NCBI GenBank assembly: GCA_002306085.1
Contig: DBRS01000017.1
Location: 1,482 to 65,481 of the forward strand
Origin: Candidatus Moranbacteria bacterium UBA1362
Lineage (GTDB): Bacteria > Patescibacteriota > Minisyncoccia > Moranbacterales > GWC2-37-73
Length of the DNA: 64,000 nt
Direction of reading: 5' to 3'
This document shows positions 14,860-21,881 of the stretch, piece after piece. Each line of letters starts with the position of its first letter. Position 1 is the first letter of the stretch. The translations under genes were made by a program, and so were the position numbers. Below the pieces are notes generated by a model. It was given only the letters and a program-made list of their open reading frames with translations. It was not told the DNA's origin and made no database searches.

Positions 14860-15031
14860 AACGGCTTGGATGCAATATGCTTCAGACGCAATCTATTGAC
14901 AAATTATTCTTCTGTTGCATAATAAAAATAATATAGGATTTTCATCACGAATTATCTATATTTAGTTACTAGTAGTTTAAAAAATTTAATTAAAGTGCCG
15001 TGGAACATCTTTTAAAACAAGGAGGTTGAAA

Positions 15032-15742
15032 TTGAAAAAATGTCTGATGTCTCTGCGGTTATGGCATCTGAGATTGGAGAAGCAGAAAGGATTGATTTTT
15101 CTGGCGCTGTCTGCGTTCTCATTCGCAGGATGCATAATCTTCGGCGAATTCTTGGCGCCACATAGCAATGCCCTTTTGCTTTTTCCGGCAAAAGCGGTAA
15201 AATGTTTCGGTTTCTCTTTTCTTGTATTTGGAATGTTGCTGATTCTCTTCGGAAACAATAGTTGCCCGAGAGATTCTCTCACGGGACTGATCAACGGACG
15301 AATCTTCATGGAAACCGAAATGAAACGCCGTCGCTCGCTATTAGCCACAGAAAGCAGATTTGTCATCTTTTTCATTGACATAGACGGCCTCAAAAAAATA
15401 AACGACATCCACGGGCATAGGGCGGGAGACGAAGCAATTTTGGCTGTCGTAGCATGCATCAAGAAAATTCTTCGAAAAAATGACATTTTCATACGCTACG
15501 GCGGAGATGAATTTGTGGTGGCAACCACTTTCAGCAAAGACTCTTTGGATTATGACCCATGCGCCTTTGAGTTTAGAATCAGAGAATCTGTAAGGACCCA
15601 TCAGTTATTCTTCGAAGACGTACGAATACCTCTTTCAGTGTCCATAGGCAGAGAAGTATTCGAACCGCGCATGGACATAGACAAAGCAATAAAACTTGCC
15701 GACGAGAAAATGTATGAAGAAAAAAAGCGAAAAGCAGCATGA
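15032..15742 (+). CDS. Membrane-anchored GGDEF-domain diguanylate cyclase (start adjusted to TTG/ATG 6-20 nt after AAGGAGG RBS)
   Basis: two N-terminal TM helices; GGDEF domain with intact RYGGDEF active site; RBS AAGGAGG at 15019-15025. Confidence 0.75.
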   Translation: MKKCLMSLRLWHLRLEKQKGLIFLALSAFSFAGCIIFGEFLAPHSNALLLFPAKAVKCFGFSFLVFGMLLILFGNNSCPRDSLTGLINGRIFMETEMKRRRSLLATESRFVIFFIDIDGLKKINDIHGHRAGDEAILAVVACIKKILRKNDIFIRYGGDEFVVATTFSKDSLDYDPCAFEFRIRESVRTHQLFFEDVRIPLSVSIGREVFEPRMDIDKAIKLADEKMYEEKKRKAA

Positions 15743-15796: not shown

Positions 15797-16069
15797 TTAG
15801 AGTAATCCTAATCTTTTTTTTGCTTCAAAAACCTGATGCGAGTTCATCTGCCCGGATTTCTGCATGGCTTCAAGAGTTTTAAGGATTTCAGCCTTGTTTT
15901 TCTGGATATTTTTTGGTGTCATTACCTTTTTTATAAGTTTGCCTCTTTCTTCGGGACTCATCTTTTCAAGTTTTTTCATTGCCATTCTCTGCATGAAACT
16001 CATGTTCTGCGGATCCAGAGGATTATCAGTTTTTTTATCTTTATCTTTTTTCTTAAAAATATTAAACAT
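15797..16069 (-). CDS. Hypothetical Lys-rich small protein (90 aa)
   Basis: ORF on dominant strand between terminator and secF; no motif. Confidence 0.35.
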   Translation of the reverse strand: MFNIFKKKDKDKKTDNPLDPQNMSFMQRMAMKKLEKMSPEERGKLIKKVMTPKNIQKNKAEILKTLEAMQKSGQMNSHQVFEAKKRLGLL

Positions 16070-16158: not shown

Positions 16159-17055
16159 TTATTTTTTTACCATCAGATTATAACTCGTCACAAGCAATGC
16201 CGACGCGATGAATATGGAAGAATATGTTCCGATAATGACACCTATGAGCAGTGCCAGCGCGAAATATTTTATCGACAAGCCTCCAAAAAGATATATTGCC
16301 AGCAGCGTTATCACCACAGTCAGCGAAGTATTAATCGAACGAACAAGAGTTTCATTAAGACTCCTATTTACTACGTCCGAAAAGCCTTCTTTATTCGACC
16401 CCCTGAGAAGATTCTCCCTTGTCCTGTCATAGACCACAATCGTATCGTGCACGGAAAATCCTAATATTGTCAAAAGTGCGGCTATGAACGGTATTCCGAT
16501 TTCCACCCCGTAGAAATGTCCGAGCACTGAAAACACTCCTGTTGTGATCAAGATGTCATGAGCGAGAGCAATCGCTGCGCCAAGTCCATATTTCCATGAT
16601 TCGACAGGGCGCGAAACCTTGCGGAAAGCCCAAGCAATATACGCCATGATCATCGCTATCGCCAACGCGATTGCTTGGAGCGATTTTGATTTGAGCTCTT
16701 TAGACACCGTGGAATTTATGAAATCCACGCTTTGTTGTGTGGCACCCGAATATTTTTCTCTGATAGCGTTCCAAACATCATCATTTGTTTTGTCATCATC
16801 CGCGGAATATCTAATGAGCGCTATATTTCCGTCCGAAGCTTGAATTATTAGACTGCCCAAATTTAAATGCTGAAGAGTTTCTGAAATTTCTTGATTGGAC
16901 GGAACGCTATCGGCAAATCCAACCTTCATAAGCGTCCCTCCTGTAAAGTCGATGTCATATTTAAGTCCCCAAAAAGACAAACTCAAAATACTGGCAAAAA
17001 CAAGTATTCCCGAAAATATATAAGCGTATTTGGCTTTACCGATAATATTGAACAT
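16159..17055 (-). CDS. secF: Protein translocase subunit SecF
   Basis: 6-TM SecD/F family C-terminal domain; immediately downstream of secD. Confidence 0.85.
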   Translation of the reverse strand: MFNIIGKAKYAYIFSGILVFASILSLSFWGLKYDIDFTGGTLMKVGFADSVPSNQEISETLQHLNLGSLIIQASDGNIALIRYSADDDKTNDDVWNAIREKYSGATQQSVDFINSTVSKELKSKSLQAIALAIAMIMAYIAWAFRKVSRPVESWKYGLGAAIALAHDILITTGVFSVLGHFYGVEIGIPFIAALLTILGFSVHDTIVVYDRTRENLLRGSNKEGFSDVVNRSLNETLVRSINTSLTVVITLLAIYLFGGLSIKYFALALLIGVIIGTYSSIFIASALLVTSYNLMVKK

Positions 17056-17117: not shown

Positions 17118-18812
17118 TTAAGTATTGGAAATTTTCACATCTTTTTTTCTGATGCCCACTATCCATACTCTCTCATGTATCCAATCGCTAACCAAAAACC
17201 TCAGCATGGTGCGAGTTATCACGATGGCTGTAAACATGGAAACGGCAACTCCGATAAAAAGAGATGCTGCGAATCCTTTCACGAAACCCGTACCCATGAA
17301 ATAGAGGATTCCCGCAGTCAACATGGATGATACGTTTCCGTCACGAATCGAAGTCCATGCGCGCTTGAATCCTTCTTCAATGGCGTTCTGCACAGTCCTC
17401 CCTCTTTTTATTTCTTCTTTCGTGCGTTCAAAAATCAAGATGTTTGCGTCAACGGCCATTCCAATGGAAAGAATAAATCCAGCGATTCCGGACAACGTCA
17501 GAGTAATCCCGCTGAATTTAAAAATAGTTATCATAAGTGCGGTATAGATCAGAAGCGAAATCGAAGCTACAAAGCCCAAAAACCTATAGAAAATAATCAT
17601 AAAAACTGTAACAGCAGCAAGTCCAACAACACCAGCAATAAGGCTTTTCTGGAGCGATTCAATGCCAAGAGACGCCTCGACGCTCTGTTGAGAAACAAGC
17701 GTTAACGGCACAGGCAATGCTCCCTGATTCAATCTTTCGGCTATTTCCTTGGCTTCTTGAAAAGTGTAATTACCGGTGATAACCGCCTGTCCGTTGGTTA
17801 TTTCTGATTGCACAACAGGAGCAATTTGAAGCTCTCCATCAAGAAATATCGCTATTTGCTTGCCCAGATTTTTTTTCGTAAGTTCGGCAAAAAGCTTAGT
17901 TCCCTCATCGTCGAACTGGAGCGCCACTTCCGGCTCTCCCAATCCCTGACCTTGGGAATATTGAGCCGTTGCAAATTTCAAATTCTTTCCGGAAAGACCG
18001 GTATCTTTATATATAAACTGTTCATATTGATATGGATCGTGTTTTGCAAAAAGGATATGGGCGGCATGAACTTCCCTCTCGTCCCCCTCACCTCTTGATT
18101 CAATAAACTTGATGATGTGCCAGCCGAATTGTGTTTCAACAAGTTCAGGATAAATTTCTCCCGATTTCAAACCCTTTTCAAAAAGCACTTCGTCAAATTC
18201 GGAAACAAATTGTCCCTTTTTTGCAAAATCAAGATCTCCCCCATTTTCTTTTGATCCCGGATCCTCACTATTATCTTTTGCGAGTTGTGAGAAATCTCCT
18301 CCATTTTTCACTTCTTCAAGAACTTTCTGCGCCTTCTCCTTCGCCTGCTTGTTTATCTGATCAAACATGTCTTTGGTCGATTGATCCGGTTCGCCCTCTT
18401 CTTTGAACTCCAAAAGCGGCGCATCTTTTATTTTTTCTTTCGCCTGCTCAATATCTTTTATACCGGGAAGCTCAACAATCACTCTGTGCTCATTGCCGCT
18501 TTTTGCTGTTTGCACCAACGGTTCGCCGACACCAAAAGCGTTGATTCTCCTTTCGATCACATCCTGCGCCCCCTGAAGCGCTTCATCAACATGCGACGAA
18601 TCTATGTTTGAAATATCCGCCTTATATTCCAAATGTATCCCTCCCTGCAGATCAAGGCCGAGATTAATTTTCAACCTGCTGATGGCATTATATGCCGGAG
18701 GAGCAAATTTCAGCACTTCGGGATATGAAAACAAGCCCGCAAAAACGGCCAGCAAAACGGTTCCCGCAAACTGAAGTTGTAGTTTCTTTTTCGCGCTTGT
18801 CATAGTTGGCAT
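17118..18812 (-). CDS. secD: Protein translocase subunit SecD carrying an inserted parvulin-type PPIase domain in the periplasmic head
   Basis: SecD motifs GLDLQGG, AIFLDG; insertion VLEEVKNGGDFSQLAKDNSEDPGSKENGGDLDF...FGWHIIKF matches the PpiC/PrsA rotamase signature. Confidence 0.8.
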   Translation of the reverse strand: MPTMTSAKKKLQLQFAGTVLLAVFAGLFSYPEVLKFAPPAYNAISRLKINLGLDLQGGIHLEYKADISNIDSSHVDEALQGAQDVIERRINAFGVGEPLVQTAKSGNEHRVIVELPGIKDIEQAKEKIKDAPLLEFKEEGEPDQSTKDMFDQINKQAKEKAQKVLEEVKNGGDFSQLAKDNSEDPGSKENGGDLDFAKKGQFVSEFDEVLFEKGLKSGEIYPELVETQFGWHIIKFIESRGEGDEREVHAAHILFAKHDPYQYEQFIYKDTGLSGKNLKFATAQYSQGQGLGEPEVALQFDDEGTKLFAELTKKNLGKQIAIFLDGELQIAPVVQSEITNGQAVITGNYTFQEAKEIAERLNQGALPVPLTLVSQQSVEASLGIESLQKSLIAGVVGLAAVTVFMIIFYRFLGFVASISLLIYTALMITIFKFSGITLTLSGIAGFILSIGMAVDANILIFERTKEEIKRGRTVQNAIEEGFKRAWTSIRDGNVSSMLTAGILYFMGTGFVKGFAASLFIGVAVSMFTAIVITRTMLRFLVSDWIHERVWIVGIRKKDVKISNT

Positions 18813-18919: not shown

Positions 18920-19183
18920 TTACGGTTCTGGCAGTTTCTCTTTATGCCTTTCCAGTTGCTCCTTTATTTCCCCCCAACGAGAATCCAGGTCGCTTTTTAT
19001 TTTTTCGAGATTTTCATCCGGATGAAAAAAACCAAACGCTCTTTTTTCTTCCACAATTTCATCAACCAGCCCTTTGTATTCTTCATATGAAGTTATTTTT
19101 TCAAAAGCGACTCGCTGTCTCAGATCGCTCAAGAGCTGCTCTTCCGAATACTCCCCACCTGTATATGTTTCGAGTTTTTTCAT
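18920..19183 (-). CDS. Hypothetical acidic small protein (87 aa)
   Basis: ORF between secA and secD, same strand. Confidence 0.35.
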   Translation of the reverse strand: MKKLETYTGGEYSEEQLLSDLRQRVAFEKITSYEEYKGLVDEIVEEKRAFGFFHPDENLEKIKSDLDSRWGEIKEQLERHKEKLPEP

Positions 19184-19247: not shown

Positions 19248-21881
19248 CTACCTCCCACAGCACTTCTTGTATTTCTTTCCGCTGCCGCAAGGACACGGAT
19301 CATTTCTTCCAACTTTGCTTTTGTTGATAATTGGCTGCTGCGGAGCAGGAGCTTCTCCTGTTTCAGTTTCTTTCGCCGCACCGAACTGCGAGACACTTTC
19401 TTCAGCGCCCTTATACTGGACATTTTTCGGCTGCTGCGGTTGCTGCGGACCTGCTGAAACCAACGAAACCCTAAAAATTGTTTTCACGGTTGTCGATCGC
19501 ATATTTTCAACAAGATGTGAAAACAAATTGTATGCCTCTTTCTTGTACTCAACAAGCGGATCGCGCTGCCCATATCCCCTGAGACCGATTCCCTGCCGCA
19601 AGTAGTCAATTTCATCAAGATGGTTCATCCAAAGAGTGTCTATGGTCTGCAGGATTACCGCCTTTTCAACTTGCCTCATAACTTCAGGACCGATTTCTTT
19701 TTCCTTTTGAATATATGCTTCTTTTGCTTTGCCTATCGCATATTCTGTCATTGCGGAAATTTTTTCAGCCACATCTTTGGCCTTATCGCTCCTGATGCCC
19801 TCAATTTTTTTGCGGTCTTGTCCTGAAAAAGGAAAAACATTTTGCAGTTCGGTGGAAATTAATTCCATGTTCCAGTCCTGTTCTTCTCCTACGCATTGAT
19901 TGGCAACAGTCCTCTCAATTTCTTCCTCTATGTAATTCGTCATCTCTTGCCTTGCGTCTTTGGATGCCAATATTTCTTTGCGTTTCTTGTAGATGACTTC
20001 ACGCTGCTTGTTCATCACGTCGTCATAGTCAAGCACGTGCTTTCGGATGTCGAAGTTATATCCTTCAATTTTCGATTGAGCGCTTTCAATTGTTTTAGAA
20101 ATGATTGAATTCTGGATAGGCTGATCTTCCGGAAGGCCAAGATTGTCCATCATATTCTTCAACTTATCACCACCAAATCTTCGCATAAGCTCATCCTCAA
20201 GTGAAACATAGAATTGGCTCATTCCCGGATCGCCCTGGCGACCGGCACGACCGCGAAGCTGATTGTCGATGCGCCGCGCCTCATGGCGTTCCGTTCCGAT
20301 AATATATAGTCCGCCAACCTCCCTCACTCCTTCTCCAAGTTTTATGTCTGTTCCGCGGCCGGCCATGTTGGTCGCGATTGTGACAGCGCCTTTCTGTCCC
20401 GCATTGGTAATGATGGAAGCTTCTTTTTCGTGATGCTTCGCGTTTAAAACTTCATGTTTGATGCCTTCGCGTTCAAGAAGCGCGCTCAGATATTCCGATT
20501 TCTCAATAGCAATCGTTCCGACCAAAAGAGGCTGTCCCTTTTTGTTCGCTTCTTTGATAAGCTCGACAATCGCATCGAATTTTCCTTTCTCAGTCTTATA
20601 GACCACATCCGGAAGATCTTTCCTGATCATCTGTTTGTTTGTCGGAATCTCGAGAACATCAAGCTTATATACTTTCGCAAATTCCTCCGCGCTTGTTGAC
20701 GCTGTTCCTGTCATTCCGGCAAGCTTCTTGTACATCCTGAAATAGTTCTGAAAAGTTATCGTCGCGAGTGTCCTGGATTCTTTCTGCACTTCCACACGTT
20801 CTTTTGCTTCGATTGCCTGATGCAGTCCGTCGCTGTAACGCCTTCCTTCCATGAGGCGTCCCGTAAAATCATCAACAATGATTACTTGACCGTCCTTCAC
20901 GACATAGTCACGATCACGCTTGAAAATCACCTGCGCTTTCAAAGACTGTTCAAGATGATGGACATAGTTTATCTTACCTACTTCGTAGATATTACCGACT
21001 CCAAGCTCTTTTTCAACTTTGGAAATTCCGGCTTCCGTGAGAGTCGCAGCTTTCATCTTTTCATCGACTTCATAATCTTCTTTTTCTTTGAGACGCGGAA
21101 CGATCTGCGCAAAGCGCTGATAGAGTTTCGTCGATTCGCTGTCGGGAGCGGAAATGATCAAAGGGGTTCTTGCTTCATCTATAAGTATCGAGTCAACTTC
21201 ATCCACAATCGCATAGTTCAATTCCCTTTGTGACATCTGATCAAGGCTCTGCACCATGTTGTCGCGGAGATAGTCAAAACCAAATTCATTATTAGTTCCG
21301 TACGTGATGTCTGCGGCATATGCCTCCCTACGCGTAATCTCCTTAAGATTTTCCATCTCAACGCTGACTTCATTCTTGTCGATCACTTTCGGTTCATAAA
21401 CATATGAAACGTCATGCATGATGCACGCAGTCGAAAGTCCCAACGCGTGATAGATCGAGCCCATCCAGTTGCAATCGCGTTTTGCGAGATAATCGTTGAC
21501 CGTTATCACGTGTACGCCTTTTCCTTCAATAGCATTAAGATATATAGCAAGAGTCGATGTCAGCGTTTTTCCTTCACCGGTCTTCATTTCAGTTATGGTT
21601 CCCTTATGAAGCGCTATCCCTCCCATGAGCTGAACGTCGTAGTGCCGTTCGCCAATGATCCTTTTTGCCGTTTCACGAACGACTGCAAATGCCTCAGGCA
21701 AAATATCGTCAAGAGTTTCGCCTTTTTTGAGCCTTTCCCTGAATTCATCGGTTTTAGTCTTGAGCCCTTCATCGGAAAGCGCAGATATTTTTTCTTCCCA
21801 CGCATTAACAGCCGCAACGATCGGCTGCAGCCTCCTTATTTCCCTCTCATTTGATCCAAATATCTTGCTTAAAAAATCCAT
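19248..21881 (-). CDS. secA: Preprotein translocase ATPase SecA
   Basis: DEAD-like motor domains, C-terminal zinc finger [14 protein letters not shown]. Confidence 0.92.

What the first reader, a model, noticed from the sequence alone, without database searches (positions are those of the whole stretch)
18010..18370. Parvulin-type PPIase domain inserted into the periplasmic head of SecD
Within SecD, between the GLDLQGG region and the P1-base/TM region, lies a ~100-aa segment (…VLEEVKNGGDFSQLAKDNSEDPGSKENGGDLDF…ETQFGWHIIKF…) that matches the PpiC/PrsA/SurA rotamase signature essentially residue for residue. An HILF element (EVHAAHILF) follows the GWHIIK motif rather than preceding it, hinting at a permuted or tandem arrangement. 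Fusing a foldase to the translocon accessory subunit would place a chaperone at the exit of SecYEG, functionally analogous to PpiD/PrsA, which are separate proteins in model bacteria.
Basis: seen in the sequence. Interest (0 to 1): 0.6.

Follow-up and report, generated by a model that had tools for sequence, protein, structure and literature searches.

The report
SecD with built-in permuted parvulin foldase
The protein-export motor subunit SecD of this uncultured ultra-small bacterium (Candidatus Moranbacteria) carries, spliced into its outward-facing moving arm, a rearranged copy of a prolyl-isomerase folding domain, so the machine that pulls secreted proteins out of the membrane channel probably also helps to fold them.

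Summary
secD (17118-18812, minus strand, 564 aa) holds a clean 118-residue insertion (aa 144-261; window 18030-18383). It scores as a parvulin PPIase (Pfam Rotamase_3 E=2e-25, Rotamase E=4e-21). It sits between the P1-base strand LLEFK and the P1-head subdomain.

The profile match lacks the first strand. The trailing EVHAAHILF hairpin supplies that strand, and moving it to the front restores full-length profile coverage and adds 7-10 bits. The insert aligns to E. coli SurA as [quoted passage not shown], which fits origin from a tandem parvulin.

Active-site residues (D184, T227, H232, H252) are kept in about 90-99% of 137 orthologous inserts. The architecture is not an assembly artefact. It recurs in 72 species-level genomes carrying many Patescibacteria lineage names, eleven of them with two units.

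The likely function is a translocon-tethered foldase or holdase. This would be a covalent version of the SurA-SecDF, PpiD-SecDF and Mycoplasma Mdp444-SecDF contacts. That function is inferred, not shown. I found no publication describing this fusion or a permuted parvulin. I rate it a new variant of a known kind, of moderate interest.

The parts
17118..18812 (-). secD, 564 aa, carrying the insert
   Evidence: Single ORF. TIGR01129 scores 382.8 bits against a cut-off of 244.4. Foldseek matches SecDF crystal structures 5YHF, 5XAN and 3AQP at E about 1e-20 to 1e-23.
18726..18794 (-). TM1 of SecD (aa 7-29). It places everything up to TM2 outside the cytoplasm.
   Evidence: AF2 helix 7-29, hydrophobic sequence, and standard SecD topology (PMC5974789).
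18396..18575 (-). N-terminal part of P1 (Pfam SecD_1st, aa 80-139), ending in the base strand LLEFK
   Evidence: PF21760 at E=7e-16. It aligns to T. thermophilus SecDF residues 30-116.
18030..18383 (-). The insertion as a whole (aa 144-261, 118 aa): a circularly permuted parvulin domain
   Evidence: Deleting it gives a P1 colinear with solved SecDF. The domain-only AF2 model has pLDDT 89.6 and pTM 0.81. Its best PDB matches are parvulins.
18093..18383 (-). Parvulin core, helix 1 through strand 4 (aa 144-240). It contains D184 (18261-18263), T227 (18132-18134) and H232 (18117-18119).
   Evidence: PF13616 covers aa 154-239 but only profile positions 33-115 of 116. PF00639 covers positions 13-96 of 97. 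Secondary structure is H144-169, H174-181, H185-188, E193-198, H204-212, E230-240.
18045..18074 (-). Relocated first strand of the parvulin (EVHAAHILFA, aa 247-256), with the active-site His252 (18057-18059)
   Evidence: Predicted strand 247-256 forms a hairpin with strand 230-240 at pLDDT above 90. Placing it N-terminally extends Pfam coverage to positions 1-96 of 97 and adds 6.6-9.5 bits. It aligns to the first strand of SurA parvulin 2, EVHARHILLK. H252 is kept in 131 of 137 inserts.
17709..18023 (-). P1-head subdomain (aa 264-368), the swinging, preprotein-binding part of SecD
   Evidence: PF22599 at E=7e-28. The role of the P1 head is taken from PMC5974789.
17181..17699 (-). TM2-TM6 proton-conducting domain (aa 372-544), with D455 (17448-17450) equivalent to T. 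thermophilus D340
   Evidence: PF02355. The alignment to 3AQP puts D455 opposite residue 340. D455 is invariant in 22 orthologues.
16159..17055 (-). secF, 298 aa, the partner subunit immediately downstream
   Evidence: PF02355 at E=1.6e-54. SecF matches lie immediately downstream of secD in related loci (126 matching ORFs across the 80 loci).
19248..21881 (-). secA, 877 aa, upstream on the same strand
   Evidence: ORF translation with SecA motifs. SecA matches were found in 17 related loci, those listed lying upstream of secD.

Best explanation
This is a functional SecD whose extracytoplasmic P1 domain has acquired a circularly permuted parvulin-type peptidyl-prolyl isomerase domain. The domain sits exactly at the connection between P1-base and P1-head.

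The domain runs helix1-helix2-helix3-strand2-helix4-strand3-strand4. A tight hairpin then leads to the strand that is normally first in a parvulin. The new ends fall at the old strand1/helix1 loop. Its two ends should therefore lie close together, as a domain inserted into a loop requires (inferred from the canonical parvulin fold; not measured on the model).

The order of the parts matches an out-of-register slice of a tandem parvulin protein: unit 1 without its first strand, plus the first strand of unit 2. That is the classical duplication route to circular permutation.

Inferred mechanism: the P1 head captures the polypeptide emerging from SecYEG and swings under proton-motive force. The parvulin riding at the hinge meets the same unfolded chain, binds it and isomerises Xaa-Pro bonds, or at least holds it. 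Pulling and first folding steps would then be done by one polypeptide.

What is shown: identity, position and permuted order of the domain, conservation of active-site residues, and wide recurrence. What is inferred: PPIase activity, action on translocating substrates, and replacement of a free PrsA/PpiD-type foldase.
For: - Domain identity and position.
- Permutation: the Pfam matches start at profile position 33/116 and 13/97. With the trailing 20 aa moved to the front, PF13616 rises from 94.0 to 103.5 bits and PF00639 from 79.5 to 86.1, with coverage 1-96 of 97. Simply deleting the segment leaves 93.2 and 80.2 bits.
- Structure: AF2 predicts a strand 230-240 / strand 247-256 hairpin. The insert has the highest confidence in the whole protein and scores pLDDT 89.6, pTM 0.81 as an isolated domain. 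Foldseek's top PDB hits are parvulin proteins: 8HM4 at rmsd 1.9 A over 105 columns, plus PrsA and SurA.
- Tandem origin: insert aa 150-256 aligns to SurA residues 169-273, that is SurA parvulin 1 running into EVHARHILLK of parvulin 2. The closest non-SecD relatives are proteins with 2-6 parvulin units.
- Active site: among 137 SecD inserts, D184 is kept in 135, T/S227 in 136, H232 in 123 and H252 in 131. Of 61 single-unit species representatives, 60 keep H232.
- SecD itself is intact: the proton-relay Asp D455 is invariant and secF is adjacent.
- Recurrence: 72 of 80 GTDB species-representative loci carry the insert. Their record titles name Moraniibacteriota, Buchanan-, Kerfeld-, Falkow-, Komeili-, Kuenen-, Uhr- and Magasanikbacteria.
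- Independent precedent for SecDF-parvulin cooperation: AlphaFold places both SurA parvulin domains on the SecDF P1 head, and SurA binds the holo-translocon (PMC9987972). PpiD contacts the periplasmic domain of SecD (PMC9643414). The PrsA-like PPIase Mdp444 cross-links to SecD(F) and sits over the translocon in M. pneumoniae (bioRxiv 10.1101/2025.04.25.650208 and 10.1101/2024.09.05.611430).
Against: - No activity or substrate data exist; these organisms are uncultured.
- About 10% of the orthologous inserts examined have H232 replaced by Glu or Phe. The first unit of two-unit variants has lost that His in 10 of 11 cases. Catalysis is therefore dispensable in some lineages.
- Parvulin domains of PpiD and SurA P1 are known to be catalytically inactive or dispensable for chaperone function (my own knowledge; PMC9643414 notes that the importance of PpiD's parvulin domain has been questioned).
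- I could not obtain model coordinates. The packing of strand 247-256 beside strand 230-240, with the two His side by side, rests on the predicted secondary structure, confidence and profile evidence, not on measured distances.
- Sequence-order-dependent aligners such as Foldseek cannot confirm a permutation.
- I could not check whether the genome also encodes a separate PrsA/PpiD. The 64-kb window has no other parvulin.
Confidence: 0.7

Rival explanations
1. The insert is a chaperone-only module. The parvulin fold serves as an additional binding surface (holdase) for unfolded chains on the P1 arm, and prolyl isomerisation is irrelevant, as argued for the parvulin domains of PpiD and SurA P1.
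For: H232 is replaced by Glu or Phe in 14 of 137 inserts, which otherwise remain well conserved. Examples are P0096 and P0104, which read GWEIIK. In two-unit variants the first unit has lost the strand-4 His in 10 of 11 cases yet is retained. PMC9643414 notes that the functional importance of PpiD's parvulin domain has been questioned.
Against: The full Asp-His-His-Thr/Ser set and the hydrophobic proline-pocket residues (L194, F/M202, F206) are kept in the great majority of inserts, across lineages whose insert regions are only 35-60% identical to this one. This is more than fold maintenance should need. In two-unit variants one unit always keeps the His pair.
Confidence: 0.2
2. The insert is a structural or regulatory appendage of the motor. 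For example it could act as a spacer or brake that tunes the swing of the P1 head, or as a docking site for another envelope protein, with no direct action on substrates.
For: It lies exactly on one of the two connections between P1-base and P1-head, the region whose movement defines the F, I and Super-F forms. The segment between the base strand and the head start also differs in length between the solved homologues.
Against: Nothing in the sequence points to a role other than that of a parvulin. Conservation is concentrated on catalytic and substrate-pocket residues. Parvulin foldases are independently known or predicted to meet SecDF.
Confidence: 0.07
3. The feature is an artefact: a chimeric metagenome assembly or a mis-joined ORF fusing a parvulin gene fragment into secD.
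For: None found. It was considered only because the window comes from an uncultured organism.
Against: The ORF is continuous. The identical protein is on 24 contigs, and a variant 3 aa shorter on 33 contigs, from NCBI, JGI, ENA and Logan. All 120 closest homologues carry PF13616/PF00639. The same architecture is found in 72 independent species-level genomes.
Confidence: 0.01

Closest known systems
Canonical SecD/SecDF (T. thermophilus 3AQP/5YHF, D. radiodurans 5XAN/5XAP)
   Same: GG motif, P1-base, P1-head and the TM2-6 proton-conducting domain with the essential Asp are all present. A separate SecF lies downstream. Once aa 144-261 are removed, P1 is colinear with these structures.
   Different: The solved proteins have only a short linker of about 40 residues between the base strand (LEFR) and the head start. 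Here that connection carries a 118-aa parvulin domain.
Parvulin PPIases (E. coli PpiC/Par10, B. subtilis PrsA parvulin domain, SurA P2, human Pin1/Par14)
   Same: The fold and sequence signature match (PF00639, PF13616). The Asp/Cys-His-His-Thr/Ser active-site set and the hydrophobic pocket residues are present. There is no Pin1-type basic phosphate-binding loop, so the domain is of the non-phospho-specific type; that assignment is my inference from the sequence.
   Different: The domain is circularly permuted. The strand carrying the first catalytic His follows strand 4 instead of opening the domain. I found no paper mentioning a circularly permuted parvulin.
PrsA (Firmicutes lipoprotein foldase) and PpiD (E. 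coli membrane-anchored chaperone at SecYEG)
   Same: Each presents a parvulin domain held at the outer face of the cytoplasmic membrane next to the Sec translocon. PpiD contacts the periplasmic domain of SecD.
   Different: They are separate proteins, anchored by a lipid or by their own TM helix. Their parvulin is embedded in a SurA-N/trigger-factor-like chaperone domain. Here there is no such chaperone domain, the anchor is SecD itself, and NCBIfam PrsA and SurA models score far below their cut-offs.
SurA tandem parvulins docking on SecDF (E. coli holo-translocon)
   Same: The best PDB sequence match of the insert is SurA. The insert reproduces the SurA order 'P1 core, linker, first strand of P2'. 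AlphaFold models place SurA's parvulin domains on the SecDF P1 head.
   Different: SurA is soluble and binds transiently. It has an N/C chaperone core and serves outer-membrane protein delivery, a pathway these organisms are not expected to have (my own knowledge, not tested here).
Mycoplasma pneumoniae 'dome' complex (Mdp436/444/489 PrsA-like lipoproteins on SecDF-SecYEG-SecA)
   Same: A genome-reduced bacterium without an outer membrane couples a parvulin (PPIC) foldase physically to SecDF at the translocon exit.
   Different: The coupling there is non-covalent, through very large trimeric lipoproteins that form a folding chamber. Here a single small domain is covalently built into SecD.

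Membership tests
SecD (TIGR01129 / PF21760 + PF22599 + PF02355) | Profile score above the curated cut-off over the full length | tested here: met
   TIGR01129 scores 382.8 bits against 244.4. PF22599 scores 97.3 against 27, PF21760 57.8 against 27, and PF02355 48.4 against 20.5.
SecD (TIGR01129 / PF21760 + PF22599 + PF02355) | N-terminal TM helix, large extracytoplasmic P1 domain, and five C-terminal TM helices with the conserved proton-relay Asp in TM4 | tested here: met
   AF2 helices 7-29 and 384-544. D455 aligns with T. thermophilus residue 340 and is invariant in 22 orthologues.
SecD (TIGR01129 / PF21760 + PF22599 + PF02355) | Partner SecF encoded alongside | tested here: met
   secF lies at 16159-17055, 62 nt downstream. 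SecF matches lie immediately downstream of secD in related loci.
SecD (TIGR01129 / PF21760 + PF22599 + PF02355) | PMF-dependent stimulation of protein export | not testable with these tools
   This needs genetics or biochemistry.
Parvulin PPIase domain (PF00639 / PF13616) | Profile score above the gathering threshold | tested here: met
   PF13616 scores 89.8 bits against 22.5 and PF00639 76.3 against 21.7. PDB parvulins match at E down to 8e-20.
Parvulin PPIase domain (PF00639 / PF13616) | Canonical order strand1-helix1-3-strand2-helix4-strand3-strand4 | tested here: not met
   The profile match lacks the first 12-32 positions. The strand-1 equivalent follows strand 4. The fold is the same but the connectivity is permuted.
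Parvulin PPIase domain (PF00639 / PF13616) | Active-site residues equivalent to Pin1 H59, C113/Asp, T152 and H157 | tested here: met
   H252, D184, T227 and H232 are present in the window protein. Across 137 inserts they are kept in 131, 135, 136 and 123. The equivalence to Pin1 numbering comes from motif alignment and my own knowledge.
Parvulin PPIase domain (PF00639 / PF13616) | Measurable cis-trans isomerase activity | not testable with these tools
   This needs an enzyme assay on the purified domain.
PrsA foldase lipoprotein | Equivalog score, lipoprotein signal, and N- and C-terminal chaperone (SurA-N-like) domain around the parvulin | tested here: not met
   NF002846 scores 60.5 bits against a cut-off of 361, and NF002827 scores 44 against 343. 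Pfam reports no SurA_N-type domain. The insert is flanked directly by SecD sequence.
SurA | Equivalog score; N-terminal chaperone domain plus two complete parvulin domains in a soluble protein | tested here: not met
   NF008038 scores 47.2 bits against 394. Only one core plus one extra strand is present.
PpiD | Own N-terminal TM anchor followed by a SurA-N-like domain and a parvulin domain | tested here: not met
   No such domains appear in the Pfam scan. A PpiD-like relative (P0162, 612 aa) has a quite different architecture and none of the SecD modules.

The most novel reading that the evidence does not exclude
In a large part of the Patescibacteria, the proton-driven SecDF motor and the extracytoplasmic prolyl isomerase may have merged into one 'pull-and-fold' machine. 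A catalytically competent, circularly permuted parvulin rides on the swinging P1 arm. Its access to the emerging chain would then be gated by the PMF-driven F/I cycle, and it would replace free PrsA/PpiD-type foldases in these minimal cells. It would also be the first natural circularly permuted parvulin. As a 'Rosetta-stone' fusion it would show that the SecDF P1 head is the physiological docking site of parvulin chaperones in bacteria generally.
Probability: 0.3. Interest if true: 0.75.

Novelty: new variant of a known kind. Interest (0 to 1): 0.55.

Why it matters
How proteins leaving SecYEG are handed to folding factors is still debated. The evidence for SecDF-chaperone contacts is recent and largely indirect. 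It consists of SurA and PpiD in E. coli and the Mdp dome in Mycoplasma.

A natural covalent fusion of a parvulin to the SecD P1 arm, conserved across many candidate phyla, is independent evolutionary evidence that these two activities work on the same substrate at the same place.

It also offers a compact, single-polypeptide system for structural and single-molecule studies of coupled pulling and folding. The permuted connectivity is a textbook-quality example of circular permutation by capture of an out-of-register slice of a tandem repeat, in a fold where I found no published report of a permutation.

For annotation, these proteins are currently named only 'protein translocase subunit SecD', which hides the foldase.

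Tried and rejected
1. First representative-library query used the wrong frame and was repeated correctly.
2. Foldseek of the whole model returned only SecDF and RND transporters. This confirms SecD but says nothing about the insert, so a domain-only model was built and searched.
3. Foldseek cannot test a permutation because its alignments follow sequence order. The longer 8HM4 alignment (105-121 columns) probably reflects the long first helix, not the relocated strand, so I do not count it as evidence for the permutation.
5. Tsukazaki 2011 (PMC3697915) is not held. Head and base roles were taken from the 2018 review instead. Exact published subdomain boundaries were not retrieved, so the insertion point is given relative to aligned T. 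thermophilus residues (LEFR 113-116; LTGADL from 160).
6. I considered that the E. coli SecD P1 expansion might sit at the same site. It does not: E. coli goes from LEFR (286-289) to the head (about 321) with a short linker, and its extra residues lie upstream.
7. I considered that LLEFK could act as the parvulin's first strand. I rejected this because it is the conserved SecD base strand, it lacks the His, and the profile gain comes only from the trailing strand.
8. A search for another parvulin in the window found none. The rest of the genome could not be examined.
9. An assembly chimera was rejected.
10. Some record titles for SecD-plus-insert loci read 'uncultured Bdellovibrionales', 'Gammaproteobacteria' or 'Bathyarchaeia'. 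I did not take these as evidence for spread outside Patescibacteria, because they come from automated third-party assemblies and the sequences fall among Patescibacteria ones. This was not verified.
Full report
**1. What is at the coordinates**

The interval 18010-18370 lies inside one uninterrupted 564-codon ORF on the minus strand (17118-18812). Residue i is encoded at 18813-3i to 18815-3i, so the interval covers residues about 148-268.

The ORF is SecD. NCBIfam TIGR01129 scores 382.8 bits against a cut-off of 244.4. Pfam finds the following:

- Sec_GG at aa 48-66
- SecD_1st at aa 80-139
- SecDF_P1_head at aa 264-368
- SecD_SecF_C at aa 372-540

Between SecD_1st and P1_head, Pfam reports Rotamase_3 (aa 154-239, E=2.3e-25) and Rotamase (aa 152-237, E=3.8e-21). 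Both are far above their gathering thresholds.

secF follows 62 nt downstream (16159-17055) and secA lies upstream (19248-21881). The wider neighbourhood is housekeeping: pheS/pheT, tyrS, murB, murC, murG and ftsW.

**2. The insert is a clean insertion at the P1 base/head junction**

I removed aa 144-261 and searched the remaining P1 domain against PDB sequences. It aligned in one colinear stretch with Deinococcus SecDF (query 49-265 to chain 44-266), and in two overlapping stretches with Thermus SecDF.

In the full-length comparison the N-terminal part stops at the base strand. LLEFK here corresponds to LEFR 113-116 in T. thermophilus. The match resumes at the start of the head, where TGLSGKNL here corresponds to LTGADL from residue 160.

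The solved proteins bridge these points with about 40 residues. Here the bridge holds a 118-residue domain.

The motor part looks intact. D455 aligns with T. thermophilus residue 340, the essential TM4 Asp, and is invariant among 22 orthologues. The whole-protein AF2 model matches SecDF crystal structures at E=1e-20 to 1e-23.

TM1 (aa 7-29) precedes P1, so the insert lies outside the cytoplasm.

**3. The parvulin appears to be circularly permuted**

- **The profile match is truncated at its N-terminus.** The Pfam matches begin at profile position 33 of 116 (PF13616) and 13 of 97 (PF00639). The first strand of a parvulin, which carries the first catalytic His in the motif xHILV, is missing in front of the domain.
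- **The missing strand follows the domain.** Directly after the last strand (FGWHIIKFIESRG) comes a short turn (EGDER) and then EVHAAHILFA.
- **The predicted structure agrees.** AF2 predicts strands 230-240 and 247-256 as a hairpin. Confidence here is the highest in the whole protein. The isolated domain gives pLDDT 89.6 and pTM 0.81.
- **A re-ordering test supports it**:

| Construct | PF13616 (bits) | PF00639 (bits) |
|---|---|---|
| Native order | 94.0 | 79.5 |
| Trailing 20 residues deleted | 93.2 | 80.2 |
| Trailing 20 residues moved to the front | 103.5 | 86.1 |

With the segment moved to the front, PF00639 coverage extends to positions 1-96 of 97 and PF13616 coverage to 14-115 of 116. 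The segment therefore scores as parvulin strand 1, but only when placed where strand 1 belongs.

- **The geometry is compatible.** In canonical parvulins strands 1 and 4 are antiparallel neighbours that carry the two active-site histidines (my own knowledge of the fold). A 4-to-1 hairpin is therefore feasible. The new termini fall at the old strand1/helix1 loop, which suits a domain that must enter and leave through one point of a host protein.
- **Limits of the evidence.** Foldseek finds parvulin proteins as best PDB matches: 8HM4, B. anthracis PrsA 6XD8, NmPin 2M08 and SurA 1M5Y. Because it aligns in sequence order, it cannot test the permutation. I had no access to model coordinates, so the side-by-side placement of H232 and H252 remains an inference.

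**4. Likely origin from a tandem parvulin**

The best PDB sequence match is E. coli SurA. One of the two alignments runs from insert residue 150 to 256 against SurA 169-273. That SurA stretch is parvulin 1 without its own first strand, then the linker, then EVHARHILLK, the first strand of SurA parvulin 2.

In the 1.84-billion-protein representative library the closest non-SecD relatives are proteins with two to six parvulin units. Many of them align through the trailing strand.

The insert therefore looks like an out-of-register slice of a tandem array. This is the standard duplication-then-truncation route to circular permutation.

**5. Distribution**

All 120 best homologues (64-100% identity) are SecD proteins with PF13616/PF00639. 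Where named, all but three are called Candidatus Moranbacteria or Moraniibacteriota; the other three are labelled 'uncultured bacterium' (two) and 'Patescibacteria group bacterium' (one). The identical sequence occurs on 24 contigs and a version 3 aa shorter at the N-terminus on 33, so this is not a chimera.

Among the top 150 clusters at 50% identity, 24 are SecD proteins or SecD fragments with the insert.

A scan of one genome per GTDB species returned 80 loci, and 72 are SecD with the insert in the same place. Their record titles name Moraniibacteriota, Buchanan-, Kerfeld-, Falkow-, Komeili-, Kuenen-, Uhr- and Magasanikbacteria and 'Parcubacteria/Patescibacteria group'. The other eight are free tandem-parvulin proteins of Ignavibacteria and Bacteroidota.

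Some titles from automated third-party assemblies (Bdellovibrionales, Gammaproteobacteria, Bathyarchaeia) are probably unreliable, and I do not take them as spread beyond Patescibacteria.

Eleven loci, and Falkowbacteria OGF28036.1 (P0272, 691 aa), carry two units.

**6. Is it likely to be catalytic?**

By motif alignment, the Pin1 residues H59, C113, T152 and H157 correspond to H252, D184, T227 and H232. Asp replaces Cys in most bacterial parvulins. The Mycoplasma Mpn444 preprint likewise reports Asp at the Pin1 C113 position and states that this substitution supports full activity in Pin1 point mutants.

Conservation in 137 SecD inserts:

| Residue | Kept in |
|---|---|
| D184 | 135 |
| T/S227 | 136 |
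| H232 | 123 (11 Glu, 3 Phe) |
| H252 | 131 |

The pocket residues L194, F/Y/L/M202 and F206 are also kept. Of 61 single-unit species representatives, 60 keep H232 and all keep D184. This pattern favours an active, non-phospho-specific parvulin. The roughly 10% of His-to-Glu/Phe variants show that catalysis is not indispensable everywhere.

The two-unit variants show an informative pattern:

- The first unit has lost the strand-4 His in 10 of 11 cases.
- The strand between the units keeps its His in 11 of 11.
- The second unit keeps its strand-4 His in 11 of 11.
- The final strand keeps His in only 4 of 11.

The conserved pair is therefore 'middle strand plus unit 2'. This suggests a canonical parvulin nested in the hairpin of a degenerate permuted one. 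It is an inference that a structure prediction could test.

**7. How it most likely works**

Published work describes the P1 head as a mobile, preprotein-binding module that swings between membrane-facing and upright forms under proton flow (PMC5974789). A parvulin fixed on one of the two base-head connections would travel with, or next to, the head and meet the same emerging chain. I propose that it binds the chain and isomerises Xaa-Pro bonds, or at least shields it, as it is pulled out.

Three independent lines show that free parvulin chaperones meet SecDF:

- SurA binds the E. coli holo-translocon, and in all AlphaFold models its two parvulin domains contact the SecDF P1 head (PMC9987972).
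- In genome-reduced Mycoplasma pneumoniae the PrsA-like PPIase Mdp444 cross-links to SecD(F) and forms a dome over the active translocon.

The Patescibacteria protein is the covalent, minimal version of the same partnership. Identity, position, permuted order, conservation and recurrence are shown. Activity, substrate contact and replacement of a free foldase are inferred.

**8. Comparison with known families and novelty**

The protein is a member of the SecD family, with all sequence-testable features met. The insert is a parvulin by profile and fold, but it fails the canonical connectivity.

It is not PrsA, SurA or PpiD. The equivalog scores are 44-60 bits against cut-offs of 343-394. There is no SurA-N-type chaperone domain, no lipoprotein signal and no anchor of its own.

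Full-text searches found no paper describing a SecD-parvulin fusion. None pairs 'circular permutation' with 'parvulin'. The library lacks most subscription journals, so this is absence of evidence only.

The architecture is visible in routine Pfam annotation of public proteins, which are named only 'SecD'. I rate it a new variant of a known kind. It is interesting to Sec-pathway and protein-evolution specialists, but it is built from familiar parts.

**9. Limits**

- No coordinates, activity data or whole-genome census were available.
- The 64-kb window contains no other parvulin. Whether the genome does is unknown.

Noticed in passing
L056, L057, L059, L062, L063, L065, L066, L067, L069, L076, L078 (SecD ORFs); P0272: SecD variants of about 680-725 aa with two parvulin units in the same insertion site. 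The first unit has lost the strand-4 His in 10 of 11 cases, while the inter-unit strand and the second unit keep their His in 11 of 11. This suggests a canonical parvulin nested inside a degenerate permuted one.
   Followed up: partly
P0096 and P0104; 14 of 137 inserts: Some Moranbacteria SecD inserts read GWEIIK instead of GWHIIK (His232 to Glu, or to Phe) but are otherwise well conserved. This points to lineages in which catalysis may have been given up.
   Followed up: partly
window 15797-16069 (-): A 90-aa lysine-rich ORF just downstream of secF has no Pfam match. It is conserved at the same position downstream of secF in 11 related loci (E down to 9e-21). It may be an uncharacterised small partner of the secDF operon.
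   Followed up: partly
window 18920-19183 (-): An 87-aa acidic ORF lies between secA and secD, with no credible Pfam match. Only one of the 80 related loci has a homologue. It is not YajC-like, as it has no TM segment.
   Followed up: partly
window 15026-15742 (+): A 238-aa GGDEF diguanylate-cyclase-domain protein (E=2e-28) with a hydrophobic N-terminus. It is one of the few genes on the plus strand, and a GGDEF protein may be uncommon in so reduced a genome.
   Followed up: no
window 1-64000: Strong strand bias. Nearly all long ORFs are on the minus strand, and GC skew is negative in every 2-kb bin (cumulative -4.08). This is consistent with the whole window lying on one replichore.
   Followed up: no
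window 19248-19310 (-), C-terminus of SecA: SecA ends in [20 protein letters not shown], which I recognise from my own knowledge as the zinc-binding C-terminal tail that binds SecB or ribosomes in other bacteria. It is preceded by a Gln/Pro-rich low-complexity linker.
   Followed up: no
L001, L004, L005, L008, L009, L014, L021, L023, L024, L040 and others: Loci with Patescibacteria-type SecD plus insert carry record titles such as 'uncultured Bdellovibrionales', 'uncultured Gammaproteobacteria', 'Lysobacteraceae' or 'Bathyarchaeia archaeon'. These are probably mislabelled MAGs or placeholder names from automated submissions.
   Followed up: no
L070-L080: In Ignavibacteria and Bacteroidota loci, two tandem-parvulin genes (about 430 aa and about 580-690 aa) sit a few hundred bases to about 1 kb apart. 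Their parvulin units are the closest free relatives of the SecD insert in the species-representative set (46-54% identity).
   Followed up: no
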